This document shows, piece by piece, positions 5,800-41,641 of a stretch of 64,000 nt of DNA (within the stretch, counting starts at the first letter, position 1; each line of letters starts with the position of its first letter). The notes below the pieces were generated by a model. That model searched no databases and had not been told where the DNA came from. It was given only the letters and a program-made list of their open reading frames with translations. The stretch spans positions 9,877-73,876 of the forward strand of contig CASESH010000004.1 of NCBI GenBank assembly GCA_949290565.1, in the 5' to 3' direction. Source of the stretch: an uncultured Christensenella sp. (GTDB lineage: Bacteria > Bacillota > Clostridia > Christensenellales > UBA1242). A program made the translations under genes and the position numbers.

Positions 5800-5883
5800 A
5801 TAGTGTAATCTGTTTAATTTTAATCATAATATATTTATACATTATTATACATTAAGTTTTTAAGGTTTATACAAGGTGTTTAT

Positions 5884-6723: not shown

Positions 6724-6824
6724 AAATACTTTTTAAGTTTAGTTAAAAATAAAAAATTAAAATTTTTATTAAAGATTTTTTTAGTTTAAAAAATAAAATT
6801 CTTTAGATTTACAAAGGACTATTT

Positions 6825-7553: not shown

Positions 7554-7603
7554 AGTCTTTTGTATATATTGACAAAATCATTTTACTTAATTAAAATTAA
7601 AAC

Positions 7604-17614: not shown

Positions 17615-17680
17615 ATGAAAAAATTTATTCTTTTTTTATCAGTTTTTATGATAACATTAGCTACTCTTTTAGTAGGGTGT
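17615..17680 (+). other. Lipoprotein signal peptide of giant protein 1 (lipobox L-V-G-C, Cys22)
   Basis: MKKFILFLSVFMITLATLLVG|C has a positively charged N-region, a hydrophobic core and a lipobox. The Cys codon is at 17678-17680. Confidence 0.8.
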
Positions 17681-29600: not shown

Positions 29601-32600
29601 ATGTTGAAGTTACTTATGATAAGTATAAAAATACGGTTTATGTAGGTGGTTTGATTGGTAAGGGAACAGGCTCTATTATTAAATCAATAGTTCAGTCAAA
29701 TTTCTTAGTTAAATCTTCTTATCAAATTACAGGTGGTATAAATAGGCACGTAGATACTATTTATCTTGGTGGTATAGCAGGTTCTTTCCAAGGTAAAATG
29801 GAAGATATATATTCTACTAATTCTACTTTTGTACTTGGTACTAGTTCGGAAGATTTAATTGTTTCAAATAATACCTCAAATTCTTATTCAGATGTTGGTG
29901 TATATGTTGGAGGTATTGTTGGTAAGTTTGCTGAGTATAGAACTAGTTCAAATTCAACCATAGGTACTGCTGAAAATATTTATATCTCAGATATTTCTAT
30001 ATCGTTATATGTATCTGGACATGTTACAGTAGGAGCTTTTGTTGGAAAAAATCAAGGAATTGTTACAAATGTTTTTGTTAGACAATCAAAAAATCCAAAA
30101 GTATTAAATTCTGGACTTGCAACAAATACTGATATTATAAAAAATGTTATTTCATTAAAATTAGATAGTTTAAGTTCTAACTATTATATCGGTGGAGTAA
30201 TAGGTGAGGCTACAAGTGCTAATATAAGTTCAGTTTATTCAAACATTGCAATACAAATAAGTATGATTAAATTTAACAATTTAGCAATAGGTGGTATTAT
30301 TGGACAACTTTCTACTACGGCAATTTTAACTGATGTAGTTAGCGATAGTGAAATTATTAATATTGAAAGACTAGAAAATTATTCTTCTAGTAGCCTTTAT
30401 GCTGGTGGTATTGTTGGTAGAGCAACAAATTCTCTAAGTTTGGATGGTGTTATTTCTACGACTAATATCAAAACTTCTCAGGAAGAAAGAATGTACATCG
30501 GTGGTTTAGTTGGTTATGCTTATTCTGTTTCACTAAAAGATTGTATTACTTTGGGAGATATACAATTGAATCGAGGAATGGGAGATTCTAGTGATTCATA
30601 CTTCTATAAGGGGGCAATTCAAAATAACGAAAACGGTATTAGTGTTGGTGCTTATTATATTGGTGGTGCTGTTGGTATTATAGAGAATACATTTAGTGTT
30701 GTTTCCGATTCAAGTTTGAATAATGGTGTATTAGTTGGGACTTCAATAAAAGATTATGCAATCGCTCAAAAGATAAATGTTAATATTTCAAGTGTTCTAG
30801 GCGGGCAGTTAAGCGATGCAATTTTTGCAGGTAGTTTAGATAAAGTTTACTATAATGAAAATTTATCTCTTGTTTCTAATTATAATTTAAAGAATTCTAC
30901 TCAAAATTCTAATAATGAAAAAGATGGTAAGAGAGCATTTACTGCTGTTAATCAAAATTATTTGGAAAAAATCTTCTTTGATATAATTGACACGTTTAGC
31001 ATTAAGTCTTCTAATTTTGTTACTTATGTTGATGTTTTGAAATATGATAGTAATTATAAGTCTAATTTATTTGAAAATCTTGTCTTTTATTCAGTAGAAA
31101 AGGTAACTTCGGGTAGTTCTACACAGGAAAATGTTATTTTAACATTGTTTGATGGTAGTAAATTAAAACCTTATAACTTTACAGATTCAACAAATTTAAA
31201 ATCAAATAAATATTATATCTTAACACAAGAGGTTGTCATTAACTCTCCAATTGTAACTTCTGAAACAAATTGGTTTATTAATGCACAGGGATTCTCAATT
31301 AATTTAAGTAATCCAAATCAGGCAGTATTTGATACTATTACAGAAAATTCTGCTTTGGTTGGTATGATTTTAGTTGTTAATATTAAGAATGTAAATCGTT
31401 CAAATTATGCCACAATAGCAAATAATAACTATGGTTTTGTTTTTGCTTGTTCTGTTGGTGGTGAAGTAAGTATTTCTAAAACTTATGGAAATTCATCTAC
31501 ATTTATTAATTCAAATTACGGAGTTATAAATAAATGTTTAAGCGCAGTCAATATTTCTACTATGAGTGGCGTTGGGTTTGTATTCTATAATGGTAAAAGT
31601 ACAAATTCAAGTTATATTGGAAATATTTATGATTGTTCATTTACAGGTTCTGTAAATTCTCTTGCAGGTTCATCATCTTCAAATAAATTTTCAGGTTTCG
31701 TTTTTGAAACTGATTATGGTGTTATTTCAAATTCTTATACAATGGCAGATATTCAAAATGCCAATAGTTCAAATATTTATCCTATGGTCGTTTCAAGTCA
31801 AAAATCGGGTAAGAATTTTTATAGAGCATTTTATGATTATGTAGCTTATTTGGGAAATAATGATACCGTTAGTATAAAAGATGTAGTTGGTGAAGAGGGA
31901 TATATTTCAAGTCAAGGTATTTACGCTTGGACAACCGCTTTCACAGGAGATATTTCAATTTCACAAAACAGTTCTAATTTAAGTATTAAAATAGAAGTTA
32001 TTTCCGATTTGTTTAACACTTATTGGATTGGAATTAGTACAAAAACGGTTTTAGTTGACTTTATTTCAAGAATGAATATTGAAAATGTTAATGATTTACA
32101 ATATGTTGATACAACTTGGTTTAATTATGGCTATGCTTTAAAAGATTATAGAAATAATGTGCTTATAAAAGATGAAGAGATAGATCAACTTAACATAGAT
32201 TCAATTGTAAGCAAATTCTTTAATATGTTATACACAGGTAATGGTTTATCCTATGATCAAGATTTAGAAGATGAAACAAATATTCTAAAAACAGTTACCT
32301 TTATTGATATGCCTTATATGATTAAGCATGGAGGTATTTTAGAAAGTTTTGTTATTGAAAATTCTAATAGCGAACATGTAAGATATAGATTCTATAAATT
32401 TGTAAAAGACATTGACCTTAGAAAATATCAAGATGTTACTTATTGGTCTTTGAGTTGGGATTTAAAAAATACTTCATTTGTGGGACATCTAGATGGAAAT
32501 AATAAAACTGTAAAAAATATGTTTTCAACCAATGGACTTCTTAGAGTTCTTCCAGATTCTACAAAGATTTCTTTGAGTCCAGAAGTTAATTATACCACTT

Positions 32601-35600
32601 ATACCGATGAATATAACATAGTAACTGTTATTAGAAATAATGTGGTAAAAAATATAGTATTTGAAAATTGTATATCAAAAACAGGTTTGCTTGCTGGATA
32701 TGCTGTTAATTCTAATGTAAGTGCTATTTCAGTTGCAACGGGTGCAACAACTAATTATGTTTATAATGGCGATTTGTTTGATTTATATACAAAACAGCCT
32801 ATTGCTGTGTTTAACACTGATAGACCTGATGATAAAACTCTTCCTCATACGATTTTTGATTTAGATGTTATAAAAAATACTATTAATTCTATTGTGTATG
32901 AAACAATTATTGAAAATCAAGTTAGTGTTGGTTCTCAAAGTGAAAATGTTTTAGTTAGAGAAAGTCAAACAATTACTTTTAAAGGACTAAATGGTGTATC
33001 AGGTTCAAATTCTTCTTTTGCTGGTGGAATAATTGGTTATATGAATAGTGGATATTTACTTCTAGACAGTATTAATGGCGGACTTTCTGTTATGGTTAAG
33101 CAGAAAGGTTATATAGATGTAAGTGCCCAAAATGAAACAGATTACAAATTAGATACTTCAAATTCATTTGTTGGTGGGGTTGTTGGTATTTTACAAGAAG
33201 GTTATATTTCAAGAAATACTGTTAAAGATTATATTGTTATTGATAGTATTAATGTTTCTGCTTCACAAGATAAAAATGCAAGAATTCAATCTCATTCATA
33301 TGTTGGTGGTGTTGCTGGTTATGTTGGTAACAATGCTACAATTGAATATATTCAGATTAGTTCTGATGATACTTCATCTCAAAATGAACAGTTAAAATTA
33401 ATCTTAAATAGTGATTATGCTGTTGGTGGTATTGCTGGTTTAGTAAATGGTGGATGGATAGATTATTGCCAATATAATTATGCCGATGGAGATGGTTTAA
33501 GATTAGGCTATGCTTATTGGGATAAAAATGATAGTTCCGGAAATACTCAGGCAAATTTAATTTTTAATAATTTCAGTAGCGTATCAGACAATGAATATTC
33601 TTATGATTCTATTAATTTAGATGAAAAAATTTTTGGTTTTGAATTCTTTGTTGGTGGTATTGCTGGTATTGTTACAAAAGGAGACATAACAAATTGTTCG
33701 TTTACTTCGAGAGCAATGAATAGCATAAATATTGAAAATATCGTTGGTTTATTTACAATAGTTGGTGGTGGTATTATTGGAGATGCTTACGCATATTTAA
33801 ATAAAATTAGTAATAGTAGTAATAACGTAAAAGATGATATTATTATTGAGAATTGTAGTTTCTTAGGACAATTTTCTATTAAAGGATATCAAGAAATTGT
33901 TGTTGGTGGTATTGTTGGTAGAATGAGAGGCGGAGAAATTATAAATTGTAATTCTGGTAAAAATACTAATAGTAATGGTGATCAAAATATTGATGTAGAC
34001 AAAAATAGTAAAATTAGTGCTCATACAAAAAGCATAGAAAGTTCTGGTGGAGCGACTTTAAATATTCTAAATAATTATTTTGCAACATCAGGAAGCAATA
34101 GAAATTTATTTTTAAGAATTTTAGATTCTTATGCTACATTTATTTCTTCATCAACTTTCGCTGATTTTAAATCTAATAGATATAATAAAGTAATGGGTCA
34201 AATAAATTCAACAGATAATACATTTAATTTTGATTTTGAAAAATTAGTAGGTATGTATGGACAGGGATATACTGTTGCAGGTGGAATTATTGGAAGACTC
34301 ATCAATGGTGAAGTTGGAGTAATTAATGTTAATTTAGATAACCAAAATAATAATGATGAAAATAATTTACAAAACAAAGTTACAAATAATGCTGTGATAA
34401 ATGTATATGGAGATAGTGGTGGTGGAATTGCTGGTGAAATATTTGTAACTCGTACTGATGAACTAACTGCTTTGGCTAATGTACACATTAAAAATGCTTA
34501 TAATTATGGACATGTCGAAGTTTATGGAACTCCTGCATTAAGTGTTAATGGTGAAGGTGACTTAGATTATGATGATTGCTTAGAAGATTTGTGGAATGGA
34601 GAAGTCCTTGACGGAAATTCAATTTTTGGACTTTCATTGCCGGAAGTTTCAGCAGGTACTAATTTTGATTTTGCCGTTGGCTTTGAATCTATGTTTAAGT
34701 TCTCTGTTATGATGAATGATGCTTCTGCTGGTGGAATTGTTGGTAACATTGTTGTAACAGGTACTTCTTCAAAAGATAAAAATCATGTATTGATAGAAGA
34801 TTGTTTAAGCGGAGATGTTCACGTAGGTTCTTTACTTGCAACTTTCTCAGGAGGTATTGTTGGAATTTCTAGTGGAGAGTATAGCAAATTAAATAACTCA
34901 GTTATTGTTCAAAATTGTAATTCTAGTTCAACTAATAGAGGCTTTATTCTTCGTTCATTTGCAGGAGGTATTGTTGGTTATTTAAAAAATACTACTGTAA
35001 AATATTGTACTTATGAAAGTAGAATGATGGATACCTTATTTTCTGTAATTGAGGAAGGCGATGATGGAAAGTCTTTTGTTGATAACTTAAAATCAACGTT
35101 TAGTGATTTTGCATCTCTTGAAAGTTATGTTTCTGTTCCTTATATTCATGGTGGTATAGTTGGATATATGGAAAGTGGTTTTGTAAATACCTGTAATACT
35201 GAATTATTATCAACAATTCTTGCTGTAAGGATTGCAGGAGGTATTGTTGGCGTAGCAGGTGGAGGAATCATTAAGTCGGATTCTGTAATGTACAATGGCG
35301 CCTTAGTTATTACCTTATTTAATGGAGTTGCAGGAGGTATTGTTGCAGTACTTGATGGTGCTGAACTTATTACAATAGGCGAAAATCTTAGTATTTCGGC
35401 AATTGTTAAAAATATTGTTACTAATATGCCAGATATTATAGAAACTTGTGGAAAGGTTGATAGTATTGAAGATTTCTTTGATGCTTTCTTAACAGTTATT
35501 TTAGATGCTTGTAATAATTCAACTGACAAAGATAAGATGAAAGGATTTATGATTAATTTACCTACTATTGTTAGTGGATATGTTTCAGGTGGAATTGTAG

Positions 35601-38600
35601 GTTATTATCAATCTTCTGTTAACACTCAAATTTCAGGCATGATTAACTTGTCATCGGTTGTAAGTTCGTTGTTCTCATACTTTGATTCTTCATTCTTTAT
35701 GGGCTTATATACAAAATTGGAAAATGAATTAAAAGATATTTATAATAGAATAGAAACTGGAATTAAAGAAGATATTTGGCCAAAATTATTAGAAGTGTGG
35801 TCAACTGTCTCAAATTATGTAACAAATGAATCTTTCTTAAAATATATTTTAGGTAGTGATTATGATTTTGAGGCTGGATTTGAAATTGGAGGACAAAAAT
35901 ATCCAATACTTGATGTCTTTGCAGGATTATCAATAAAGTCACTTGCTACGCTATTAAAATTGGTTGCTGATTTTGATATTGATGGTTATAGTTTTTCTGA
36001 ATATTTCACAGGGATTATTATTAATAAGTATGAGTGGGTGAATAGTTATGATAGTGATCTTGGAGGAAATGTAAGTCAATTAAAATATCAAAAAAATATT
36101 AGAATTATAGAGAATGAACAATCAAATTCTTATTCAACAGATATTAGATTAAATGATTTAGTAGAGAAATCTGATAGTTTTAATCCAGAAGATTTTGCAA
36201 CAACTTCTTCAGATGCAGTTGGTATGATGGGTTCATCTGGTGGTATTATTGGATTTATTAATTCAAAAAATTCTTCAACACTTGTTATTAGTTCAACTGT
36301 TAATTATGGCTTTAACTTAACAACAAATTGGACTGGTCTTGATAAAGTATTAGATTACTTAAATACTAGAATTTCTTCCTCAGGATTTGCAGGTGGATTA
36401 GTAGGTTGTATTTATGATGAAAGTAATCAAGTTGATATAACTTTTAGTTCAAATATGGCAATTGTTTATGGAAAATCTGCTGGTGGGATTTTAGGATATG
36501 GTGGGCCTAATGCTCAGATAACTTCCGTAAGAGATGAAGGAGATATTTTAGTAGATGTTGTTGTAAATATGGTTGCTGGAAATGAGTTGTATGGAGCAGT
36601 TTCAAATAATGGAGAAATTTATGGTACCTTATTTGCAGGTGGCATTGCTGGTTATGCAGATGGATTGCAAATTAATTCTCAAAAAATTGATAATTTGTTT
36701 GCACCTAATTCAATAGGTGTGTATGCTGAGTGGAGCAGAACATATAAACCAGGTATTGAAATTAATCCAAATTATGAAACAATTGAATCAGATAAAATTA
36801 AAGGAAATTGGTCACAGGGAATAGGAGATATTAATTTCTTATCTGGAATATTTAGTATTGTAAATTCTGGTACAGTAAGGGGTACAATGTTTACAGGCGG
36901 AATAGTCGGTTTTATGGGTGGGAATACCGGTATATATATGGCTAATGTCTCTAAAAACGTTTTTTCAAGTATAATGCAATCGTTTACTTTAAATTTTGAT
37001 TTTACTTTTGCCTTAGAAGGTGTTTATGTTGGTGGTATTGCTGGATATATGCAAAGTGGTAAAATATCAAGCACTTGTTATGTCGGAACAAATAGTAAGT
37101 TGAATAATTTACACCTTGTTTCATTGCCTGCTAACCAATATGTTCCTAGTCAATCTAAAATACAATCTCAAACTCTTTCGCAATCTTTACTTGCGATACA
37201 AGATTCAAGAAATGCTTATTTGAGTGCTTCAACATCAAGAAGTGCACAACAGATAATTGATGCAAATAATATGTTTGGAGGTTATGCTGGTGGAGTTGTA
37301 GGATTTTATGTAAATGGAGAAGTTGGAGGAGATTACATTAAAGTTAAAGGGGAGACTCAAACTGAAATAGTTGGGGTTGTTAATGTTAATCAAGGCGTTA
37401 AATTTGGTTTAACAGACAATGCTATATCTCCATTTAGCGGTGGTGTAATAGGATACTATAATTATACTGCGACTGAAAGGGCTCCTGTTTATGCACAAAT
37501 TAATTCAAGTGTTTCTAACGCATACTTTGTAGGCGGTTTGATGGGACAAACAAAAGAAGGTGCAACACTAGACTTTAATATGGATGCAAATAAAAACAAT
37601 AAAGAAAATCAAAATGCGCAAGATGGTTCTAACATACCTACTCCATATTATTCTTCTATTTCCGTATCAGTAGCAAATGGACAACAATCAAGCGATGAAG
37701 ATGAAACCATAAAAGGTGCCGAAGGTTCATTTGTTGGCGGGATTATTGGCTATGCTAAAAATTGCAAAATATCAAATATTTTTATGTCTGGAAATATAAC
37801 TTCGGAAGGTGCAAAAAATACTATCGGTGGTATTGTCGGGCTTATGGATGGTGGTACTATTACAAACGCTTATGTTGGTAGATTGGATAGCAATGGAGCC
37901 GTTTACACGAATTCAGAATATCCGGTTATTAAAATTACCGAAGAAAAGAATAAAGATGATGAAAAAGTTAATATTTGGCAGACATATGATGACATTGAAA
38001 TGATAAATACAAGATATGCTCTTGGTGTTGTTGGTGGTATTGTTGGAATGATAGTTTCTACAAGTGACAATACGCTTGATACAAAAATTTCTAATGTAAC
38101 AATGTTTGGTGGTATTCAGGGTGGAGTTTTCTCAGGTGGTATTGTTGGATGGTTAGGTAATAATGCTGTTGTTGAAAATGTAACAAATTTAGGAAGTGTA
38201 GAAGATGCTTTATATTCAGGTGGTATTGTAGGTAGGCTTGATGGTGGTGAATTAATTAGTGGTTATGTTTCTCACAATTCTGAAAATGAACATATTGTTT
38301 ATGGAGACAATAATAAATTTAAGTTAGTCAATGGAGATACTTCTGAAAATTATAAATTAACTATTAGTGGTAAATATGGTGCAGGTGGACTTGTTGGAGT
38401 ATTAAGTGATATTATAGTTACTGATAGTAAATCTATTTTAAGTGGTGGAGATGCTTCTAGCGAGTACATAACATTAACATCTTCTTTGGAGCAAGATGAC
38501 AATAAAAATAACAATAATGAAAGTGAAGAAGAAGAGGAAACCCCTGTACAAGAGGAAACTAGAATTGGTATTGGTGGAATTGTAGGTGCTATGCTTGGTG

Positions 38601-41518
38601 GAGAAATTAAAGGAAATACAAATAAAGATGAAAATGAAAATAATTCACAGGATGAAGATGTAGAAATTAAGGAAAGTTATCCAAAAGCAGCAAATGTACA
38701 AGGTGAAGTTGTAGGTGGCCTTGTAGGTTATATGGAAGCAGGTACTATAAATGATGGATATGTACAAAATGTTACTTTACTTGAAAATGGTAAGTATGCC
38801 GGTGGAATTGTGGGTACATTTAAAGGTGGTACAATTAATAAGGTTAGAAGTAAACAAGATGAAGAAGGAAATATAACTGCTAAGGTTAGTGCAACTAAAA
38901 ATACTTATGGTGCGATGGGTGGAGTGATTGGAAATCTTGAAATAGATACAACTTTAACTCCTGTATATATTGCAAATACAATAACTGGTTTGCCTGTTGA
39001 AAATGGTTTATATGCAGGTGGTTTAATTGGACACGCTAATACAAAAGTAGCAATAACTAACGATAATATGAAAGCAAAAGTTACAACAATTTCAGGTTCT
39101 TATTATGCTGGTGGTATATTTGGCTGGGTTTCAAATGGAACAATAGAAGTTAGTTTAAATAGTAATACTAATATTGAATCTGCAACTTATGGTGGAGGTA
39201 TTATCGGTTATATTGGTAGAGGTACAAATGATGAGCAATCATCTTCAAGTGTAATAATTAATTCACCTACAAATGTTACAGAAGTTAGCGTTCCACTTTC
39301 ACAATATCAACTTTCTATTAATGCTGGAACAATTGGTGGTTATGTTGGTTTTGTTGATAACACAGAGGTTCAATTTGATAATAATCAATATATTATAAGA
39401 GGTACATTTAAGAACTGTATAGTGTTTGGTGGTATTGTTGGAGAAACTAGTTATAGTTGTATTCAAAGTAAAGCAAATGGTTTAACTACTACTTCTACAA
39501 ATATTGAAAAGAGAAATGTTTATTTTGTTATAGAAATTGATTCAAGTAGAATGAATACTTTTGGTGGAATTGTTGGTTATTCTGAAAAGTCATTAATTGA
39601 AGGATTTAAAATAACATTTAGCAATTTATCTGACCCTATACTTCCTGGTGGAGATAATCCGTTATATTCAATTATTAATTTTGTAAATATTGCAAATGAT
39701 ATAGTAGTTGGTGGAATAGTTGCTACGGCAAATTACTCAACAATTAATAGTTGTGAAAGTGCACTCTCTTTTAGTTCGTATATAACTTCCGCATCTGCCC
39801 TTGCAAGAGTTGATATGGGTGGAATTGTTGGTTTTGCAAAATCATCTTCAATTATAGACAGTATAAATAAAGTACCAATTTACAGTACGAATATGAAATC
39901 TAATGTAGGTGGAATAGTGGGTGTTATCAATACAGGTTACATTCTAGATTGTAGTAATGAAGGTGATATAAAATTATTACAAAATATAGTTGCAGATGGA
40001 GAAAATGTTAGTGCAACATTAAATGTTGTAAAAGCTTGGGCAATGTCTGATGGTAGTAAAAACTTTGTATTTAGTGGAACTGTTGTGGAAGAAGGTGGAG
40101 AAAATGATTCTCCAACAACTACTGCTGAGACTAATGATAATGTTTCTAATCCAAATGATAATTATCTTTTCTTCTCTCAAAATTATACTGGTGGCGTTGG
40201 TGGTATTGCTGGTTATGCCTATTCTGATATTGATTTTGAAGGTGTTATTGTCGAAAAAGAAGATGAGCCTGACGATGAGCCTGCTCAAATTATAAATGAT
40301 TCGCAACTTCCAGATGGAGGAGACGATTCACAAACTGATAACCTACAATTTGTAAAAATTAGAGCAGGTAATACAGGTACTATTTATGGATATTATTTCT
40401 ATGGTAGGTCAGAAACAGATGGTAAATATGATTATAATAAAGAATTAAGTTATATTGACCCTAATGATGATTCAAAAAGTGATTATTCATATTTTGAAAA
40501 TGCTTTTGACCATAGAGGTTTGATTTTAGGTTATGCAGGAGGAGATATTCTTTCAACTGATAATTCTAAAATTACAATTCAAGATACTACTAATTATCAA
40601 TCTTCTTCAGGTACGACAAATTATCTTTCAAGTTATGATACAAATGACCATATTCAACTTGTAGATAATACTACTGATACCGGTGATGATAGTGGAGAGG
40701 GAGAAGATGGACAAGATAGCGATACTCCTGGAACTGTAACTATTAATTGGGCTGAGAGACATGATGTATTAACTAACCAATATTCTTATATTTATGAATT
40801 AAGTTACGTTGTTACCAACTTTACTTGTCAAGAGGAATCAGGTCAATATGTAGAAACTTCTCAACCAGAAGTTAAAAAGTATAAATATGTTGCTGAAAGT
40901 GAAGAAACTGTAAAACAATTAACATTAAATTCATATGAAGAATTTGAAAATTATAAGACTAAAATTAATGGTATTTTAAATCTTCCTGATTCAGAGAGTA
41001 AAAATCATTCAGTTCATAGTTTAGAGTTTAATTATGAAGAAGAACATACAAGTCAAGAAGACTATTCTACAACTAGTATCACTTTGAAAGTTTATGAGTT
41101 ACATAGAACCTATATTGCTATTTCACTTGTAGATGATTATAAGCAGGTTTATGGATTTAGTTTTACTGGTAGTAGAGTTGCAAATAATGTTGATACTTAC
41201 ATGTCTGAACTTTCCTTTAAAGCAAATTTAGTTTTAATTAATCTAACTGAAAAATATATTGGAGAAGTGGTTGATGATAAGACAACTTTAATTCCTAACA
41301 AATTACCTCCTGAACCTGTTGAAGAAGATGATACAGGTTCCGGAAGTGGGTCATCTACTACAAGTTTAAATTTGAATAAGCATAATTTAGTGGAAAAGTT
41401 AAACAATATTACTACTCCACTTAAAGAGTCCAAAGGTTTGTTAGATTCTACTAACGTTTTAAACAATAATTTATTCTTAGTTGAAAATCAATTATTTGGA
41501 AAGTTTTATCACTTTTAA
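17615..41518 (+). CDS. Giant surface lipoprotein (7,967 aa): Ig-like regions alternating with at least six GLUG-type parallel beta-helix modules
   Basis: Uninterrupted 23,904-nt ORF in AT-rich DNA. RBS TAGGTGA sits 7 nt before the ATG. Lipobox LLVGC. Big_2-like segments are present. By eye there are more than 60 rungs of the form GG[ILV][VAI]Gx(3)Gx[IL]x[NDS][SC][YF]. Module N-caps recur (..EEL..I......YIL.NDI.L......PI..F.G.F.GNG.TI.NL.I), as do C-caps (W......YP.L). Confidence 0.9.
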   Translation: MKKFILFLSVFMITLATLLVGCAKDKYGDLKITVTSVISSDGDRLSPNEEDGFYYVEVGQTFTISCDVSSSTPITKYLNFVSENSSVLHFEKTAENSRSAVFTANAYTVDEPVGIKISSKETLTNAITLNFMIVAPVTEITTPDNLVLDSKNPLNIKENVVFKSSYLQNNSLQVNNSEKKLTYTLNSIIVNNQTYSLVLRDDNWYDIIGFDGATVFPNGKENAFTIQNDTLIVADDVYGNLLLDVKSYRYVENIEETFDDSLTEIDKNNLIQANNKLINKNVSINILQPLKITDFTISSGQISFENIGQDGLEKIKLTSILYDNRSTDSYNVSGTNYNYNLETLNIFISNLDKDFYTIKFFDIDGNQIKENSTGVLKLSENNPTQLNANKVGTEYVDIVVSYNTANNISYSFSELYKEYLQDNGLQLEDNLNRLQFNVQSLANNIELYIDDSLTSVDSNGEVEIFDKYAETKNLGTKFEIKFSNITGVDKENKKVKVYLESSNVLDLTKYLEIYDASNGSTISRITIESEVTDGKTYYYFIRDLDLNQSVFYMKATDADILNSFNIRVENLLQTNILDRNNESILNNLTNAEDSFSIVVKKGVSIVEAKIVNDQNFYNIATNKDAGQDENELFYSKLVLDLSNNSTLVALMFDYGLEGELNLSSYNSSAIKIEKVDNANIYFSENATASNLSISAVYKITGLKEITNSRVTFTADNGYSISFIVDVVKQVKQVNYNFYEYYDGSITQNLYDEENYVSIKKDQSFNFNFIPSTLNVTESASSGIINYSYSVENEEIAYVADNSIGKITAISEGISTVSLYVEYYSFNLVNGYNQWTKTAFTESFDLEVFVPAKDINVNQNTITSFNYNDLPSEYSSNSQIQISVNIDNNATISNLERYADKISFRFKDQENFLNTVKENNEIIANTVLKSDQESLVTYVYVTVDEFGIEHNFECKIEITRPVKINEIDLRIIDGFNKQVKIDETNNNVDGTIRVGKDEILNAITLINPENPLIDEFVVTIYDELIIPDGADYDIIEFNSKNDNLRFNFNADEQIAGEDGIFYVIVNAKDSLEIFYDSDNQPYYEFTKSYVLRVIIEDGIKNSYGISNQEELIAINQDPSKNYILENDIVLSGDFTPIQNFTGVFNGNGFTISNLNISSTSAHLMDDINQTYNVGLFASLNNKADTYGVIYDLNLQVNNINLTSNINALQVNVGGLVGNNNGLIINSSVNIKNIYVNLPNAQVNVGGLVGLNTNNIFNFAFDSLYNYETDADLISKEFVILNNSKINNLILGNTLSDSSIENAISKKYVKGNIAVYDSLASSANIGGIVGRNDFVVNGFYGLYARYTSTNNNYIVTYQSQYVDSDVLINVNNGELVNENSTVGGIAGLNNKNLFNLSSQGKIGNFDFNTNTLASSTYKNVGGIVGSTLGNIQNVLSSVYVRGQENIGGIAGKVVGSSSLETVLNKSKVESYDCSNDLSNTIIVGKNNVGGIAGFSSYGYLTESYFYGYSDKFDTSYINNGDIFVVNQDGNEYAGGLIGFAEQSSINNSFAIANIKSIVDSLNIRGLSGSSVKAGNDVFYFGVVNISGKNDVENILGALSCDYYFVFDYNDSFDNFVLVKSYGDTTNDIENANITFEYLDGDNLVSIYKYSDILRDMPVDIVVSGNGSGVENANNEIVLEFKTGDIKNNFYAYQISQGEEIVNVLLVNLIEKNSIMNIGDLFNISSTPNSISLNLIVESSNNKIVSVNDDGSLTFKNYGEVILTFTVKENLLVSSQVKVIINESFDNLMLSSNHNFANSYFDSTESNVSKVRTGFEFNIISQLSKNVGGTTFEIENANFYDIDFNISYKSDAIGTYSEAVLGRDYEIVNQYNNVLVAKFIVNGYFKFDVSISFQDEDGNIYRIKDNSWVFYLLSFSGAVDISFAESEIWIKTNETYESLTVNLGVDNGAERPELTIQLQLPSNEKIILNATVADEVYTFNHNNSPFIITVSNLNNSIENVYSYNLSISVKQEFEKIDEAQEYFLVVYDKAELLIDDGAGVQINLIPALLEKIDLVHYAYTQKSSTLINNTNTSIDGNEESTYFYSYSQNSSDMIYAGMGGLLVIQLYPYYSDIISVNIKSSLNGTGGDISFIQLAKVRDANKNSSGGYDEYFVVAPSPIKNLDGSYSLNLVSSMPNTRIVFDGNNNASLEGDGKYAFNEEPNYPNYGMLFVRTIAPTDLSKNDSFTITVSVTYSSINDNKQIVETTKVESKTLEVKDIPGMSMTLSHNGVERNVIAYTGSNGESASQPDWIDITTQVDSGINSTISYTYLSKNDGNVQGSDYVNIVQKDSNNYELRLGSKAVVGDIITLTMEVQLIYDDRIVIQKASTQTITVVDVVIESLSLYGINENNQLILGVSSAMQIRAKINGFGLQSAIESVEQEISRSVYNSSGSALYWFAKDEDSQNYITLNSQNIADKLPFNVKQLPNSIDGNFEVSVNGITYVLNYNTIYLEGMINSGSASLLLNCSYEYRNAELYLIPNYSSETAFSNSFYFDVLIVKGEGDENLTAIENETDFKTKMYEGGDYILMNDITLTNYVPIEANFSSFDGNNKIITINSFYYNVQQTGKDKQINLGLFSTVSDQTTIKNVIVALPDDKNSNNNYPYMDLSTYTSITYGGIASINNGLITNSEVITIDKIKDNSTNVGYSFNIKTSPTATVNVGLVVGINNGIITNSRVGRETVQVLQSLDNDSAIVNLKNLDSVLDKTAIYVNGAGNVAGFVAVNNGTISSSYAKNIQLETFIDEGGHENLKTAGFVIENNGYIYGSYASGWEENTRDAVVSDTSLIIDSENRKLGGGIFTNSTIAGFVHQNNNYIEDSYSNINISGSYVFAAKTSKILNENSQNTTGFISSAGGAGFVYKASEKSYITTSYSLSKIKADNTLGLFAGNLNYSSEDDNELGTMSDCYALKEIGESFVVYDVDGVTVLYDQSESSVEGDYNTDINQFADENSFNNFSFDTNVEDFSSFDGISSGGVWAMYRGENNSAYPELISANTIAISCRVINFDKDGNEYYTYVDGYDYGSINNPYLISNASEYNDLFSDYNYGEGFNQNIASKFTKSIRLINHINFANLPVYSTSVEYTSIVGEETTIFDGNYLSMYNIFLSDSNEVKDSFGLFRNVYNAGIKNLSLGISSIIAGNTTSVGALAGVIVDSNISNISLFACSTTTDVNGEIRGNNYVGALAGIITSSDNGEFYFVSRIKSNLLVKGSTSDTGISSSIKNSFDIWEDIKPITVASGTSYIGGNLRLNELNKSNYYAGGIAGVIDLRQRQELSETVIISDYNVSNIHVGAFYQNTSVNTTSNSYGDVGVMSVYAGGLFGYIGEETFLTKSQFIVSQNSSISAKEIAGGIAGVNFGMISKSYVSYNPKTMRVIDSDFINYVNGANYVSQPNTSLFSKDIENYQPKYIGGIVGLNSGDDTTGSGSIIDCYNRVDVKNPYSLGVGGIVGASYIGEISNVYTTASLYGNFELRKLSNGTTVEADDVYVGAIIGKIMKDSENYFSSSITAEQKELNLFNIVAVNLWDINDFESIFNFVNTKDGYVGALYGFYENGADSTGIVRISQSSNIYVQNYILNGYTNQYLSTIDSSEDFNKYDYNSYETSGKTTYIQLWGSAYETRTEGSTAPTPSDDPDNIDDYLSQYFSQNKDARIEPHDFRITFKDNVIETGTISASARILKETYFNELNWLPVTWDHSIVNLLPLLSYGYMSSIIEIRTAEDFFTELSAKDNGDKTFIVMNDIDFSDYPSIEPIMQEFNGTLLGMDISYEINGIRYTRKPILFNLNLVNDAVDKSGYAIFNNAVNATFADLNFVINNYDVQFTKDDATTQAGILVASAESTTFRNINIYNSLIDEAVIQSLSTTNLSGTYLVGMGIQYENLVAVGYSPKSFLVTSDNYGNTYNYEYSTNENVYNLVKEIIVEGSSTADKVILVTSENNIKTNASIFGAIVGNVNGEVNVENSSSNIDVEVTYDKYKNTVYVGGLIGKGTGSIIKSIVQSNFLVKSSYQITGGINRHVDTIYLGGIAGSFQGKMEDIYSTNSTFVLGTSSEDLIVSNNTSNSYSDVGVYVGGIVGKFAEYRTSSNSTIGTAENIYISDISISLYVSGHVTVGAFVGKNQGIVTNVFVRQSKNPKVLNSGLATNTDIIKNVISLKLDSLSSNYYIGGVIGEATSANISSVYSNIAIQISMIKFNNLAIGGIIGQLSTTAILTDVVSDSEIINIERLENYSSSSLYAGGIVGRATNSLSLDGVISTTNIKTSQEERMYIGGLVGYAYSVSLKDCITLGDIQLNRGMGDSSDSYFYKGAIQNNENGISVGAYYIGGAVGIIENTFSVVSDSSLNNGVLVGTSIKDYAIAQKINVNISSVLGGQLSDAIFAGSLDKVYYNENLSLVSNYNLKNSTQNSNNEKDGKRAFTAVNQNYLEKIFFDIIDTFSIKSSNFVTYVDVLKYDSNYKSNLFENLVFYSVEKVTSGSSTQENVILTLFDGSKLKPYNFTDSTNLKSNKYYILTQEVVINSPIVTSETNWFINAQGFSINLSNPNQAVFDTITENSALVGMILVVNIKNVNRSNYATIANNNYGFVFACSVGGEVSISKTYGNSSTFINSNYGVINKCLSAVNISTMSGVGFVFYNGKSTNSSYIGNIYDCSFTGSVNSLAGSSSSNKFSGFVFETDYGVISNSYTMADIQNANSSNIYPMVVSSQKSGKNFYRAFYDYVAYLGNNDTVSIKDVVGEEGYISSQGIYAWTTAFTGDISISQNSSNLSIKIEVISDLFNTYWIGISTKTVLVDFISRMNIENVNDLQYVDTTWFNYGYALKDYRNNVLIKDEEIDQLNIDSIVSKFFNMLYTGNGLSYDQDLEDETNILKTVTFIDMPYMIKHGGILESFVIENSNSEHVRYRFYKFVKDIDLRKYQDVTYWSLSWDLKNTSFVGHLDGNNKTVKNMFSTNGLLRVLPDSTKISLSPEVNYTTYTDEYNIVTVIRNNVVKNIVFENCISKTGLLAGYAVNSNVSAISVATGATTNYVYNGDLFDLYTKQPIAVFNTDRPDDKTLPHTIFDLDVIKNTINSIVYETIIENQVSVGSQSENVLVRESQTITFKGLNGVSGSNSSFAGGIIGYMNSGYLLLDSINGGLSVMVKQKGYIDVSAQNETDYKLDTSNSFVGGVVGILQEGYISRNTVKDYIVIDSINVSASQDKNARIQSHSYVGGVAGYVGNNATIEYIQISSDDTSSQNEQLKLILNSDYAVGGIAGLVNGGWIDYCQYNYADGDGLRLGYAYWDKNDSSGNTQANLIFNNFSSVSDNEYSYDSINLDEKIFGFEFFVGGIAGIVTKGDITNCSFTSRAMNSINIENIVGLFTIVGGGIIGDAYAYLNKISNSSNNVKDDIIIENCSFLGQFSIKGYQEIVVGGIVGRMRGGEIINCNSGKNTNSNGDQNIDVDKNSKISAHTKSIESSGGATLNILNNYFATSGSNRNLFLRILDSYATFISSSTFADFKSNRYNKVMGQINSTDNTFNFDFEKLVGMYGQGYTVAGGIIGRLINGEVGVINVNLDNQNNNDENNLQNKVTNNAVINVYGDSGGGIAGEIFVTRTDELTALANVHIKNAYNYGHVEVYGTPALSVNGEGDLDYDDCLEDLWNGEVLDGNSIFGLSLPEVSAGTNFDFAVGFESMFKFSVMMNDASAGGIVGNIVVTGTSSKDKNHVLIEDCLSGDVHVGSLLATFSGGIVGISSGEYSKLNNSVIVQNCNSSSTNRGFILRSFAGGIVGYLKNTTVKYCTYESRMMDTLFSVIEEGDDGKSFVDNLKSTFSDFASLESYVSVPYIHGGIVGYMESGFVNTCNTELLSTILAVRIAGGIVGVAGGGIIKSDSVMYNGALVITLFNGVAGGIVAVLDGAELITIGENLSISAIVKNIVTNMPDIIETCGKVDSIEDFFDAFLTVILDACNNSTDKDKMKGFMINLPTIVSGYVSGGIVGYYQSSVNTQISGMINLSSVVSSLFSYFDSSFFMGLYTKLENELKDIYNRIETGIKEDIWPKLLEVWSTVSNYVTNESFLKYILGSDYDFEAGFEIGGQKYPILDVFAGLSIKSLATLLKLVADFDIDGYSFSEYFTGIIINKYEWVNSYDSDLGGNVSQLKYQKNIRIIENEQSNSYSTDIRLNDLVEKSDSFNPEDFATTSSDAVGMMGSSGGIIGFINSKNSSTLVISSTVNYGFNLTTNWTGLDKVLDYLNTRISSSGFAGGLVGCIYDESNQVDITFSSNMAIVYGKSAGGILGYGGPNAQITSVRDEGDILVDVVVNMVAGNELYGAVSNNGEIYGTLFAGGIAGYADGLQINSQKIDNLFAPNSIGVYAEWSRTYKPGIEINPNYETIESDKIKGNWSQGIGDINFLSGIFSIVNSGTVRGTMFTGGIVGFMGGNTGIYMANVSKNVFSSIMQSFTLNFDFTFALEGVYVGGIAGYMQSGKISSTCYVGTNSKLNNLHLVSLPANQYVPSQSKIQSQTLSQSLLAIQDSRNAYLSASTSRSAQQIIDANNMFGGYAGGVVGFYVNGEVGGDYIKVKGETQTEIVGVVNVNQGVKFGLTDNAISPFSGGVIGYYNYTATERAPVYAQINSSVSNAYFVGGLMGQTKEGATLDFNMDANKNNKENQNAQDGSNIPTPYYSSISVSVANGQQSSDEDETIKGAEGSFVGGIIGYAKNCKISNIFMSGNITSEGAKNTIGGIVGLMDGGTITNAYVGRLDSNGAVYTNSEYPVIKITEEKNKDDEKVNIWQTYDDIEMINTRYALGVVGGIVGMIVSTSDNTLDTKISNVTMFGGIQGGVFSGGIVGWLGNNAVVENVTNLGSVEDALYSGGIVGRLDGGELISGYVSHNSENEHIVYGDNNKFKLVNGDTSENYKLTISGKYGAGGLVGVLSDIIVTDSKSILSGGDASSEYITLTSSLEQDDNKNNNNESEEEEETPVQEETRIGIGGIVGAMLGGEIKGNTNKDENENNSQDEDVEIKESYPKAANVQGEVVGGLVGYMEAGTINDGYVQNVTLLENGKYAGGIVGTFKGGTINKVRSKQDEEGNITAKVSATKNTYGAMGGVIGNLEIDTTLTPVYIANTITGLPVENGLYAGGLIGHANTKVAITNDNMKAKVTTISGSYYAGGIFGWVSNGTIEVSLNSNTNIESATYGGGIIGYIGRGTNDEQSSSSVIINSPTNVTEVSVPLSQYQLSINAGTIGGYVGFVDNTEVQFDNNQYIIRGTFKNCIVFGGIVGETSYSCIQSKANGLTTTSTNIEKRNVYFVIEIDSSRMNTFGGIVGYSEKSLIEGFKITFSNLSDPILPGGDNPLYSIINFVNIANDIVVGGIVATANYSTINSCESALSFSSYITSASALARVDMGGIVGFAKSSSIIDSINKVPIYSTNMKSNVGGIVGVINTGYILDCSNEGDIKLLQNIVADGENVSATLNVVKAWAMSDGSKNFVFSGTVVEEGGENDSPTTTAETNDNVSNPNDNYLFFSQNYTGGVGGIAGYAYSDIDFEGVIVEKEDEPDDEPAQIINDSQLPDGGDDSQTDNLQFVKIRAGNTGTIYGYYFYGRSETDGKYDYNKELSYIDPNDDSKSDYSYFENAFDHRGLILGYAGGDILSTDNSKITIQDTTNYQSSSGTTNYLSSYDTNDHIQLVDNTTDTGDDSGEGEDGQDSDTPGTVTINWAERHDVLTNQYSYIYELSYVVTNFTCQEESGQYVETSQPEVKKYKYVAESEETVKQLTLNSYEEFENYKTKINGILNLPDSESKNHSVHSLEFNYEEEHTSQEDYSTTSITLKVYELHRTYIAISLVDDYKQVYGFSFTGSRVANNVDTYMSELSFKANLVLINLTEKYIGEVVDDKTTLIPNKLPPEPVEEDDTGSGSGSSTTSLNLNKHNLVEKLNNITTPLKESKGLLDSTNVLNNNLFLVENQLFGKFYHF
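20921..22330 (+). repeat. Giant 1 beta-helix module 1a (GLUG-type rungs)
   Basis: N-cap ISNQEELIAINQDPSKNYILENDIVLSGDFTPIQNFTGVFNGNGFTISNLNI. The rungs are NVGGLVGNNNG, NVGGLVGLNTN, NIGGIVGRNDF, TVGGIAGLNNK, NVGGIVGSTLG, NIGGIAGKVVG, NVGGIAGFSSY and YAGGLIGFAEQ. Boundaries are approximate. Confidence 0.6.
22800..22950 (+). other. Example Big_2-like Ig domain segment in a giant 1 spacer
   Basis: LNLIVESSNNKIVSVNDDGSLTFKNYGEVILTFTVKENLLVSSQVKVII follows the bacterial Ig-like group 2 pattern (S.N..IA.V...G.vta...G.a.ItA). Confidence 0.5.
25247..26700 (+). repeat. Giant 1 beta-helix module 1b (variant [AG]GFV..NNG rungs)
   Basis: N-cap IENETDFKTKMYEGGDYILMNDITLTNYVPIEANFSSFDGNNKIITI. The rungs are YGGIASINNGLITNS, VGLVVGINNGIITNS, VAGFVAVNNGTISSSY, TAGFVIENNGYIYGSY, IAGFVHQNNNYIEDSY and GAGFVYKASEKSYITTSY. 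C-cap GGVWAMYRGENNSAYPELI. Confidence 0.6.
26798..28830 (+). repeat. Giant 1 beta-helix module 1c
   Basis: N-cap PYLISNASEYNDLFSD...IFDGNYLSMYNIFL. Rungs include VGALAGVIVDS, YVGALAGIITS, YAGGIAGVIDL, YAGGLFGYIGE, IAGGIAGVNFG, YIGGIVGLNSG and VGGIVGASYIG. C-cap NWLPVTWDHSIVNLLPLL. Confidence 0.55.
28847..30870 (+). repeat. Giant 1 beta-helix module 1d
   Basis: N-cap IRTAEDFFTELSAKDNGDKTFIVMNDIDFSDYPSIEPIMQEFNGTLLG. The rungs are YVGGLIGKGTG, YLGGIAGSFQG, YVGGIVGKFAE, YIGGVIGEATS, AIGGIIGQLST, YAGGIVGRATN, YIGGLVGYAYS and YIGGAVGIIEN. Confidence 0.55.
31205..32140 (+). repeat. Giant 1 short beta-helix module (GFV-variant rungs)
   Basis: KYYILTQEVVINSPIVTSETNWFINAQGFSINLSN, then YGFVFACSVGGEVS, SGVGFVFYNGKS and FSGFVFETDYGVISNSY. 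The C-cap-like sequence is VDTTWFNYGYAL. Confidence 0.45.
32398..40250 (+). repeat. Giant 1 mega beta-helix module 1e (about 2,600 aa of near-continuous GLUG-type rungs)
   Basis: N-cap-like FVKDIDLRKYQDVTYWSLSWDLKNTSFVGHLDGNNKTVKNMFS. More than 40 rungs follow, from SFAGGIIGYMNS (about 33010) to TGGVGGIAGYAYS (about 40200). They are interrupted only by short loops, acidic patches and one non-repeat insert of about 280 aa (35380-36230). Confidence 0.6.
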
Positions 41519-41572: not shown

Positions 41573-41641
41573 ATGAAGAAAATTATAAATTTTATTTTAT
41601 TTATTTCTTTGTCTATTTTAACTTTTGTTTTTGTAGGCTGT
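41573..41641 (+). other. Lipoprotein signal peptide of giant protein 2 (lipobox F-V-G-C, Cys23)
   Basis: MKKIINFILFISLSILTFVFVG|C. The Cys codon TGT is at 41639-41641. Confidence 0.8.

What the first reader, a model, noticed from the sequence alone, without database searches (positions are those of the whole stretch)
32398..40250. A single uninterrupted beta-helix module of about 2,600 residues
Seen in the sequence: modules elsewhere in both proteins span about 300-680 aa between an N-cap and a W...YP.L C-cap. After the N-cap-like FVKDIDLRKY...GHLDGNNKTVKNMF at about 32398, rungs of the GG[ILV][VAI]G type continue to about 40250 without a recognisable C-cap. I count more than 40 clear rungs plus many degenerate ones.

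Inference: if each turn of about 22-25 aa rises about 0.48 nm, as in known right-handed parallel beta-helices, this one module alone could be a rod roughly 50 nm long. That would be well beyond typical beta-helix domains.

The rungs are diverged at the nucleotide level, with no long exact DNA repeats visible. This argues for an old, selectively maintained array rather than recent slippage or an assembly artefact.
Basis: partly seen in the sequence, partly recalled or inferred. Interest (0 to 1): 0.8.

Follow-up and report, generated by a model that had tools for sequence, protein, structure and literature searches.

The report
Very long GLUG-type beta-helix stalk module
The last ~2,600 residues of repeats in a 7,967-residue bacterial surface lipoprotein are a real, ancient and conserved single beta-helix-type module, probably a rigid stalk of about 30 nm decorated with inserted loops; this is an extreme example of a known kind of structure, not a new kind.

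Summary
In ORF 17615..41518 (7,967 aa, lipoprotein signal) the last profile-detectable N-cap is at aa 4888-5023. After it come 41 strict GG[ILV]xG motifs (46 by HMM) up to aa 7546, against 0.35 expected by shuffling. There is no further N-cap and no W..YP.L cap. DNA repeats are similar only at motif level (60-80%).

The interpretation needs corrections:
- The base rung is 27-29 aa, not 22-25.
- Motif rungs account for only about half of the residues. The rest are degenerate rungs and excursions, including a conserved ~200-aa insert (aa ~6010-6203).
- I estimate 57-91 coils, or 27-44 nm, most likely near 30 nm, rather than 50 nm.

Nine further family members, five of them full-length at 7,689-7,993 aa, keep the same module (2,470-2,945 aa). 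Nearly every rung aligns in all 10 sequences at ~26-34% identity. Three independent assemblies give the identical 7,967-aa length. So the array is old and selected, not an artefact.

AlphaFold across the largest insert gave confident rungs on both sides and pTM 0.68, which favours one continuous stack. Coordinates were not visible, and about half of the module was not modelled well.

Other metagenomic GLUG proteins have 40-46 rungs, and FHA and CdiA reach 30-50 nm. This is therefore an extreme variant of a known kind.

The parts
17615..41518 (+). Giant ORF p1 (7,967 aa) that contains the module. Its N-terminus, MKKFILFLSVFMITLATLLVGC, is a lipoprotein signal with an L-V-G-C lipobox.
   Evidence: There is no LPxTG, no HExxH and no TM-like stretch.
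32276..32683 (+). N-cap of the long module (aa 4888-5023). It includes the conserved DMPYMIKH anchor and FVGHLDGNNKTVKNMF.
   Evidence: N-cap profile hit of 23.4 bits, the last one in the protein. The segment is conserved in all homologues.
32684..33007 (+). Degenerate first coils (aa 5024-5131), for example KTGLLAGYAV and NYVYNGDL. No canonical GG..G motif.
   Evidence: Conserved columns in the four-sequence N-cap alignment. An AGY rung column is conserved in 10 of 10 sequences.
33008..40252 (+). GLUG-like rung array (aa 5132-7546). It has 46 HMM-detected rungs with the consensus y.GGIvGy..gG.I.n. The base period is 27-29 aa.
   Evidence: Pfam Glug PF07581 scores 23.5 bits (cut-off 20.5) in the first tile and falls below the cut-off elsewhere.
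35024..35131 (+). Predicted helical excursion (aa ~5804-5839) between rungs 5784 and 5846.
   Evidence: AF2 DSSP shows helices at tile positions 70-105, pLDDT ~50. In the alignment this interval is 59-71 aa in nine family members and 27 aa in P0003.
35390..35539 (+). Predicted two-helix excursion (aa ~5926-5975) between rungs 5907 and 5992.
   Evidence: AF2 DSSP shows helices at tile positions 192-241, pLDDT 57-65. In the alignment this interval is 66-86 aa in nine family members and 32 aa in P0003.
35642..36223 (+). Large conserved inserted subdomain (aa ~6010-6203). It is predicted as a long helix plus beta-hairpins. Conserved motifs are G.INLG, DG.K.P(I/L) and Y..I..KY.W.
   Evidence: The interval is 176-283 aa in nine family members. 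P0003 has no rung spacing above 114 aa in its array.
40253..40747 (+). Array terminus and linker (aa 7547-7711). It contains an acidic low-complexity stretch, the conserved GYY(F/Y)YG and D(R/K/H)RG..(V/L/A)G motifs, and no canonical W..YP.L C-cap.
   Evidence: Ten-sequence alignment; regex search.
40748..41518 (+). Conserved C-terminal domain (aa 7712-7967, starting at WAER). It has no family assignment.
   Evidence: No Pfam or NCBIfam hit.
41573..58507 (+). Adjacent second giant lipoprotein p2 (5,644 aa). It has six ordinary-sized capped GLUG-type modules.
   Evidence: The same gene pair occurs in the homologous locus L001.

Best explanation
The region is one capped module of a divergent GLUG-type parallel beta-helix.

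Anatomy. An N-cap (aa 4888-5023) is followed by a few degenerate coils and then about 46 canonical rungs, one per y.GGIvGy..gG.I.n motif, with a base length of 27-29 aa. I estimate about 57 coils in total, and at most about 90. Extra sequence sits between rungs as excursions: two short helical ones, a conserved ~200-aa subdomain, and acidic loops. The array ends in a conserved GYYYYG...DRRG segment followed by a ~250-aa C-terminal domain.

Proposed function (inferred). The protein is tethered to the membrane by an N-terminal lipid. The module acts as a rigid stalk of about 30 nm, at the distal end of a chain of five or six shorter beta-helix modules. It holds the C-terminal domain and the inserted subdomain through or beyond the cell wall, for adhesion or action on a surface polymer.

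Shown: the motif array, the cap positions, conservation across homologues, and independence from assembly.

Inferred: the beta-helix fold, continuity of stacking, the rise per coil, and the stalk or adhesin role.
For: Array and caps. Rung period of 27-29 aa.

Family. The profile search of 1.84 billion representatives finds only nine proteins at E<1e-30. Five are full-length, 7,689-7,993 aa, and match the tile at the same position, ~5350-6640. All five carry lipoprotein-type N-termini.

Conservation. Module length is 2,470-2,945 aa. The rung columns are conserved in 10 of 10 members. BLASTP of p1 against P0001 is collinear over 4,335 columns.

Not an artefact. An intact ORF is present in an independent MAG, L006. 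Three assemblies at 99.8% identity give the same 7,967-aa length.

Fold.
- AF2 tile aa 5735-6440 shows rung blocks on both sides of the big insert at pLDDT 72-92 with short-strand triplets. pTM is 0.68 although 30% of residues are below pLDDT 50.
- The top Foldseek hits are all parallel beta-helices, including IgA1 protease and the Bacteroides putative IgA1 protease 3n6z, but none is significant.
- Pfam Glug scores above its cut-off in part of the module.
- The tile profile hits GLUG and M26_N-annotated proteins.

Inserts are dispensable for the backbone. P0003 has a ~2,000-aa array with a median spacing of 33 aa and no spacing above 114 aa.

The S. pneumoniae IgA1 protease N-terminal domain is a solved beta-helix, and other beta-helices have domains that emanate from the core and return to it (PMC7695701). 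One homologue carries a CHAP domain at the distal C-terminus.
Against: - No coordinates or PAE were available, so stacking across the inserts is inferred from pTM and pLDDT only.
- The 1,200-aa tile gave a mean pLDDT of 44, and its C-terminal half was not modelled.
- aa 4929-5419 and 6620-7545 were never modelled.
- All structure-library hits are non-significant, or have low TM-scores.
- No sequence relative has a solved structure.
- Three of the four module tiles are below the Pfam Glug cut-off.
- The register of the P0003 alignment inside the array is ambiguous.
- No evidence bears directly on function.
Confidence: 0.6

Rival explanations
1. Segmented helix. The module has a single N-cap, but it is physically several shorter beta-helical segments joined by hinges at the large excursions (aa ~5449-5550, ~5619-5700, ~6010-6203). 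It would then be a jointed or bent fibre rather than one rigid rod.
For: Three or more rung-free intervals longer than 100 aa are conserved in nine of ten family members. The inserts are predicted as helical at low confidence. The Foldseek alignments that span the tile have low TM-scores and high RMSD, which would fit a bent or poorly packed model.
Against: pTM is 0.68 for a tile in which the largest insert separates two confident rung blocks. There is no N-cap signature after any insert. P0003 has a regular array without these inserts. Excursions that leave the beta-helix core and return to it are well known (PMC7695701).
Confidence: 0.25
2. Enzymatic beta-helix. The module, or its inserted subdomain, is a polysaccharide-binding or polysaccharide-degrading beta-helix like the tailspike depolymerases and lyases, rather than a passive spacer.
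For: The top structural neighbours include capsule depolymerases, tailspikes and fucoidan lyase, although none is significant. One homologue carries a CHAP cell-wall hydrolase domain at its C-terminus.
Against: There is no hit to any catalytic family in Pfam or NCBIfam and no HExxH. The conserved residues are almost all structural Gly, Ile and Val of the rungs. The CHAP domain is an add-on in one lineage only.
Confidence: 0.12
3. Artefact. The length comes from an assembly expansion or from recent slippage of a short repeat.
For: None was found. The homologues in some MAGs are split by frameshifts or N-runs, which shows that such loci are hard to assemble.
Against: There are no long or tandem DNA repeats. 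Three assemblies give the identical length. Orthologues at ~26-34% identity keep the same rungs and the same length.
Confidence: 0.01

Closest known systems
GLUG-motif beta-helix (Pfam PF07581 / Peptidase_M26_N), as in the N-terminal domain of S. pneumoniae IgA1 protease (PDB 6XJA/7JGJ; PMC7695701) and the Bacteroides ovatus putative IgA1 protease 3n6z
   Same: The same GG(I/L)(V/A)G-centred repeat of ~28 aa. Pfam Glug scores above its cut-off in part of the module. These structures are among the top, though non-significant, fold hits. The N-cap type is the same.
   Different: The solved helix is ~270-290 aa and is described as small and without protrusions (PMC7695701). Here there are about 46 or more rungs over ~2,600 aa, with conserved excursions. 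There is no protease domain, no HExxH and no LPxTG. There is no sequence hit to any PDB chain.
TpsA filaments: Bordetella FHA/FhaB and the CdiA FHA-1 region
   Same: A single-chain parallel beta-helix rod tens of nanometres long that presents a distal functional domain. FHA is 50 nm. The CdiA FHA-1 region is predicted to be 30-35 nm at 4.8 A per repeat (PMC6070651, PMC5371414).
   Different: The TpsA repeats are 19-20 aa. They have a TPS secretion domain and are exported by an outer-membrane partner in diderm bacteria. Here the rungs are 27-29 aa and GLUG-type, there is an N-terminal lipoprotein signal, and no TPS or haemagglutinin family is hit.
Autotransporter passenger beta-helices (Hbp, EspC, H. 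influenzae IgA1 protease)
   Same: A long beta-helix with domains that emanate from the core and return to it (PMC7695701). Hbp and EspC appear among the fold hits.
   Different: No C-terminal beta-barrel translocator family was detected. The repeat type is different. The anchor is a lipid at the N-terminus.
Other uncharacterised metagenomic GLUG giants (P0040, P0051 and P0033 with prepilin-like N-termini; the lipoproteins P0068 and P0081)
   Same: Arrays of 40-46 GG..G motifs spanning 1,500-1,950 aa with no recognisable internal caps, and the same 27-29 aa base spacing.
   Different: They have fewer residues per array and fewer or no large inserts. They are not orthologous (E of 1e-6 to 1e-11 against 0 to 1e-97 for the family). 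P0081 shows a recent tandem-duplication pattern, whereas this array is anciently diverged.
Beta-helix filaments in giant proteins of Omnitrophota and giant Clostridia proteins (bioRxiv 10.1101/2023.11.21.568195)
   Same: Giant surface proteins known only from metagenomes, with long predicted beta-helical filaments and proposed roles in cell-cell contact or cell-wall attack.
   Different: Those are antiparallel beta-helices with many transmembrane regions and SecA-like domains, and are 10-85 thousand aa long. No relationship was tested here.

Membership tests
GLUG motif repeats (Pfam PF07581) | Match to the Pfam Glug HMM at or above the gathering score (20.5 bits) | tested here: met
   23.5 bits in the module tile aa 4899-5562. 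24.6 bits in the N-terminal half of p1. The other three module tiles score 10.8 bits or less, so the rungs are a divergent version.
GLUG motif repeats (Pfam PF07581) | Repeated unit of ~28 aa centred on G-G-hydrophobic-hydrophobic-G | tested here: met
   The spacing histogram has its mode at 27-29 aa and a sharp lower edge at 26-27 aa across ten family members. The seed alignment of 41 rungs is.
Capped parallel beta-helix module of the GLUG / pectate-lyase-like type | N-terminal cap (...DIDL...F.G.fdGNg.tI.N...) preceding the coils | tested here: met
   A profile built from 51 unrelated N-caps hits aa 4888-5023 at 23.4 bits and nothing afterwards.
Capped parallel beta-helix module of the GLUG / pectate-lyase-like type | C-terminal cap of the W...YP.L type | tested here: not met
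   No regex match in aa 4929-7967. The C-cap profile, built from 11 seeds, was too weak to be informative. The family instead ends in a conserved GYYYYG...DRRG segment.
Capped parallel beta-helix module of the GLUG / pectate-lyase-like type | Stacked coils of three short beta-strands around one axis | tested here: inconclusive
   AF2 DSSP shows triplets or quadruplets of 3-5-residue strands per rung at pLDDT 72-92, with pTM 0.68. No coordinates or PAE were visible. Foldseek hits to beta-helices were non-significant.
TpsA / FHA-type beta-helix exoproteins | N-terminal TPS secretion domain and 19-20-aa FHA repeats | tested here: not met
   No such Pfam or NCBIfam families were hit. The period is 27-29 aa. 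The N-terminus is a lipoprotein signal.
Autotransporter passenger domains | C-terminal beta-barrel translocator domain | tested here: not met
   The C-terminal 405 aa have no Pfam or NCBIfam hit.
M26 IgA1-specific metalloproteases | HExxH catalytic motif / Peptidase_M26 domains and an LPxTG anchor | tested here: not met
   No HExxH and no LPxTG in p1 or p2. No M26 Pfam hit in p1.
Bacterial lipoproteins | Signal peptide ending in a lipobox L-[ASV]-[GA]-C | tested here: met
   MKKFILFLSVFMITLATLLVG-C read directly from the sequence. All five full-length orthologues have equivalent N-termini ending LVAC or LFAC. Lipidation itself cannot be tested here.

The most novel reading that the evidence does not exclude
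The family could be a monoderm counterpart of TpsA/CdiA filaments. In this reading a lipid-anchored, single-chain beta-helix rod of 30 nm or more carries a receptor-binding inserted subdomain (aa ~6010-6203) and an exchangeable distal C-terminal effector. One lineage has a CHAP peptidoglycan hydrolase at that position. The rod would be used for contact-dependent attack on, or attachment to, neighbouring cells. It would also be the longest continuous GLUG-type beta-helix known.
Probability: 0.12. Interest if true: 0.75.

Novelty: new variant of a known kind. Interest (0 to 1): 0.45.

Why it matters
If the module is one continuous helix, it is a natural single-chain beta-solenoid of roughly 57 or more coils. 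That is about five to six times the only solved GLUG-type helix, and it was built without recent duplication.

This would make it a useful test case for three things:
- how very long beta-helices fold and stay in register;
- how excursions are tolerated in such a helix;
- how monoderm bacteria project functional domains tens of nanometres from a lipid anchor.

It also defines a small, unannotated family of ~8,000-aa lipoproteins in uncultured Clostridia-like bacteria. That family currently has no name and no family model except a weak Glug hit.

Tried and rejected
- The homologue search with the full 5,471-column alignment timed out.
- The word-indexed homologue searches missed the five full-length orthologues. 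Only the exhaustive HMMER search found them.
- PDB sequence searches with a tile, with a profile and with a bridging protein found nothing. The hhalign match to P0010 lies outside its Peptidase_M26_N region, so it does not link the rungs directly to the solved helix.
- The 1,200-aa AlphaFold tile with six sequences was too weak to use (mean pLDDT 44).
- Foldseek against the PDB and BFVD gave only non-significant or low-TM hits.
- The C-cap profile was uninformative.
- NCBIfam gave no hit for any part of p1.
- A first HMM-based census of array lengths was distorted by thresholds and an over-permissive cap regex. I replaced it with a motif-based census.
- I considered L005 as a short-module variant and rejected it, because the ORF is cut by a run of N.
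- The exact-protein contig look-up for p1 found no record, so the source organism is inferred only from the titles of relatives' records.
- Literature searches for 'GLUG' found no structural or functional study.
Full report
**Context.** The window is low in G+C (about 24-35%) and all large ORFs are on the + strand. Two adjacent giant ORFs dominate it: p1 (17615..41518, 7,967 aa) and p2 (41573..58507, 5,644 aa). Both start with a lipoprotein-type signal ending in a lipobox (p1 ...LLVG-C, p2 ...VFVG-C). The flanking genes are ordinary housekeeping genes: Mfd/TRCF, a lysyl-phosphatidylglycerol synthase-like protein, an M23 peptidase and rpoB. The finding concerns p1 aa ~4929-7545.

**Checking the observation.**
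- FVKDIDLRKY begins at aa 4929 (nt 32399). The last rung ends at aa 7546 (nt 40252).
- The region holds 41 strict GG[ILV][VAILM]G motifs. Residue shuffles give a mean of 0.35 and a maximum of 3, and the non-helical parts of p1 have none.
- A rung HMM iterated from these motifs finds 46 rungs from aa 5132 to 7546.
- I built an N-cap profile from 51 N-caps of unrelated GLUG proteins, with no family member in the seed. It recovers the module starts of p1 (aa 1085, 2529, 3057, 3729, 4888) and of p2 (six caps). It finds nothing after aa 5023 in p1, and the same holds for the orthologues whose hits were inspected, P0025 and P0027.
- The W..YP.L regex finds no cap in the region. A C-cap profile was too weak to add anything.
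- At DNA level there are only short motif-level similarities (23-57 nt, 60-92% identity) and no tandem arrays.

**Rung period and rod length.**
- Across ten family members the spacing between consecutive motifs has a sharp lower edge at 26-27 aa and a mode at 27-29 aa. There are secondary humps near 36-38 and 45-49 aa, and essentially nothing at 22-25 aa.
- At 28 aa per rung, the 46 motif rungs account for about 49% of the 2,617 residues.
- Taking the shortest family length of every inter-rung interval as the helix core gives about 57 coils. Assuming that every residue of p1 is in coils gives 91.
- The established rise is ~0.48 nm per coil (as used for FHA and CdiA, PMC5371414). That gives 27-44 nm. 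Since a large part of the extra sequence is predicted to be helical or loop-like, about 30 nm is the best estimate. This step is inference.

**Homologues.**
- The word-indexed search found only three relatives (P0001-P0003).
- An exhaustive HMMER search of 1.84 billion representatives with a 1,200-aa tile profile found nine proteins at E<1e-30. Among them are five full-length orthologues of 7,689-7,993 aa, and in each the tile matches at the same place, ~5350-6640. All five start with a lipoprotein signal.
- The distance from the conserved N-anchor (DMPYxIKH) to the start of the C-terminal domain (WxERN) is 2,814 aa in p1 and 2,469-2,945 aa in eight others.
- p1 aligns collinearly with P0001 over 4,335 columns at 29% identity.
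- In a ten-sequence MAFFT alignment, about 44 of p1's GG..G rungs fall in columns that are G-G in all ten sequences, at ~26-34% overall identity.
- An intact ORF of 6,058 aa or more with the same module is present in an independent MAG, 'Clostridia bacterium INTA.CYC.065'. Other carriers are MAGs labelled 'uncultured Christensenella sp.'. One of these has 42-45% G+C, so the family is not confined to low-GC genomes.
- p1 itself is in the public collection. Two further assemblies carry proteins that are 99.8% identical and exactly 7,967 aa long, with one substitution each in the module and no indel.

The array is therefore ancient, orthologous rung by rung, and maintained in length. Assembly expansion and recent slippage are excluded for practical purposes.

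**Is it uninterrupted?** There are no caps inside it, but it is not a bare stack.
- p1 has rung-free intervals of 125, 103, 85 and 217 aa (aa 5431-5556, 5603-5706, 5907-5992, 5992-6209) and several of 60-97 aa.
- These intervals are present in nine of ten family members, with variable lengths.
- The largest interval (176-283 aa) has conserved motifs of its own (G.INLG, DG.K.P(I/L), Y..I..KY.W), so it is an inserted subdomain rather than a linker.
- The divergent member P0003 has a ~2,000-aa array with a median spacing of 33 aa and no spacing above 114 aa. The helix backbone therefore does not need these inserts. The exact rung-to-rung register of P0003 against p1 is ambiguous, so I rely only on statements that do not depend on the alignment.

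**Structure prediction.**
- A 1,200-aa tile (aa 5420-6619, six sequences) gave a mean pLDDT of 44. The rung blocks reached 70-89 with short-strand patterns, the gaps were helical at low confidence, and the C-terminal half was not modelled.
- A 706-aa tile centred on the largest insert (aa 5735-6440, nine sequences) gave a mean pLDDT of 63 and pTM of 0.68.
- In that tile the rung blocks are confident on both sides of the insert (pLDDT 73-92 before it, 72-90 after it). Each rung shows three to four strands of 3-5 residues.
- Its excursions at aa ~5804-5839 and ~5926-5975 are helical. The insert itself has low confidence and is predicted as a ~50-residue helix plus hairpins.
- About 30% of the residues are below pLDDT 50 and the larger rung half is about 41% of the tile. 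A pTM of 0.68 is hard to reach unless both halves are placed in one frame, which indirectly supports continuous stacking. I could not see coordinates or PAE.
- Foldseek hits for both models are non-significant. They are almost exclusively parallel beta-helices: capsule depolymerases, tailspikes, Hbp and EspC passengers, S. pneumoniae IgA1 protease, and the B. ovatus putative IgA1 protease 3n6z. One BFVD hit reached E=5.6e-4 over the whole tile, but with a low TM-score.

**Family assignment.**
- Pfam Glug (PF07581) passes its cut-off in the first module tile (23.5 bits) and in an upstream module (24.6 bits), but not in the other three tiles.
- The tile profile retrieves many PF07581-annotated proteins and a few PF05342-annotated ones at E of 1e-7 to 1e-17.
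- The hhalign match to one of those proteins lies in its GLUG-like rungs, not in its M26_N region.
- The S. pneumoniae IgA1 protease N-terminal domain is a solved beta-helix of ~270-290 aa, described as small and without protrusions. Other beta-helices are known to have domains that emanate from the core and return to it (PMC7695701).
- There is no sequence relative in the PDB and no NCBIfam model.
- Membership tests for TpsA/FHA, autotransporters and M26 proteases fail.

**How unusual is it?**
- Among the 150 best hits of the profile search, unrelated proteins carry GG..G arrays of 40-46 motifs over 1,500-1,950 aa with no recognisable internal caps. Examples are P0040, P0051 and P0033, which have prepilin-like N-termini, and the lipoproteins P0068 and P0081.
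- The family studied here has the longest arrays in residues (2,200-2,600 aa from first to last motif), but a similar number of motif rungs. This sample is biased and my cap detection is crude, so it is not a census.
- Outside the GLUG type, FHA is a 50-nm beta-helical rod and the CdiA FHA-1 region is predicted at 30-35 nm (PMC6070651, PMC5371414). Long beta-helix filaments have also been predicted in giant metagenomic proteins (bioRxiv 10.1101/2023.11.21.568195).
- The module is thus an extreme, decorated variant of a known architectural principle, in an uncharacterised protein family.

**Function (inferred).**
- p1 is N-terminally lipid-anchored, with no LPxTG, no transmembrane-like stretch and no recognisable catalytic domain.
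- The conserved positions of the module are overwhelmingly the structural Gly, Ile and Val of the rungs.
- The module sits distal to five or six shorter beta-helix modules and proximal to a conserved ~250-aa C-terminal domain. In one homologue a CHAP peptidoglycan-hydrolase domain follows that domain (34 bits).

The most economical reading is a rigid stalk that projects the inserted subdomain and the C-terminal domain through or beyond the cell wall, for adhesion or action on a surface polymer. A jointed fibre (confidence ~0.25) and an enzymatic beta-helix (~0.12) remain open.

**Limits.** Only about 45% of the module was modelled with any confidence. aa 4929-5419 and 6620-7545 were not modelled at all. 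Handedness, the axis and the rise are assumed from the fold class. The organism is known only from the MAG titles of relatives.

Noticed in passing
window 41573-58507 (+): A second giant lipoprotein, p2 (5,644 aa), lies directly downstream. It has six ordinary-sized capped GLUG-type modules, with N-cap profile hits at aa 1145, 2565, 3178, 4077, 4702 and 5100. The same p1-p2 gene pair is present in the homologous locus L001, where the second gene encodes 5,638 aa.
   Followed up: partly
window 35642-36223 (p1 aa ~6010-6203): A conserved ~180-280-aa inserted subdomain sits inside the rung array. It has its own motifs (G.INLG, DG.K.P(I/L), Y..I..KY.W) and a hydrophobic helix-like start. It is present in nine of ten family members and has no family or structure match. 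It may be the functional site or a hinge.
   Followed up: partly
L003 18548-19735 (P0003 C-terminus): One divergent family member ends in a CHAP peptidoglycan-hydrolase domain (PF05257, 34 bits), added after the shared C-terminal domain. This hints that the distal end of these proteins deals with cell walls.
   Followed up: partly
L001 58-18073; L002 ~9890-10001; L003 ~9994-10001; L005 ~11350-11455: The orthologous genes in several MAGs are split by frameshifts. In L001 two ORFs in different frames overlap. In L003 a TAA is followed by an ATG 5 nt later in another frame. In L005 the gene is cut by an N-run. The database 'proteins' P0001-P0003 are therefore fragments of ~8,000-aa genes.
   Followed up: partly
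proteins P0040, P0051, P0033: Three unrelated proteins of 6,000-6,700 aa combine a prepilin-like N-terminus (e.g. KKGFTLMEVVIVIAIIG) with ~1,900-aa GLUG arrays of ~40 motifs. That would be a pilin-anchored beta-helix fibre, and it seems undescribed.
   Followed up: no
window ~38462-38555, ~38627-38698, ~40022-40174, ~40253-40414 (p1 aa ~6950-6980, 7005-7028, 7470-7520, 7547-7600): Acidic or Asn-rich low-complexity loops lie between rungs in the C-terminal third of the array and just after it. Their lengths vary strongly among the orthologues.
   Followed up: no
window 3252-5329 and 16121-16702: Two tandem CAAX/Rce1-like membrane protease genes and an M23 peptidase gene lie upstream of the giant genes. 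Any link to processing of the giant lipoproteins is untested.
   Followed up: no
whole window: There is no tRNA and no Rfam family at gathering threshold in 64 kb. All ORFs of 150 aa or more are on the + strand, and GC skew is uniformly positive.
   Followed up: yes
L005 (CAYJEF010000004.1): This family member sits in a genome region of 42-45% G+C, against ~27% in the window. The family therefore spans lineages of very different base composition while keeping its rung pattern.
   Followed up: no
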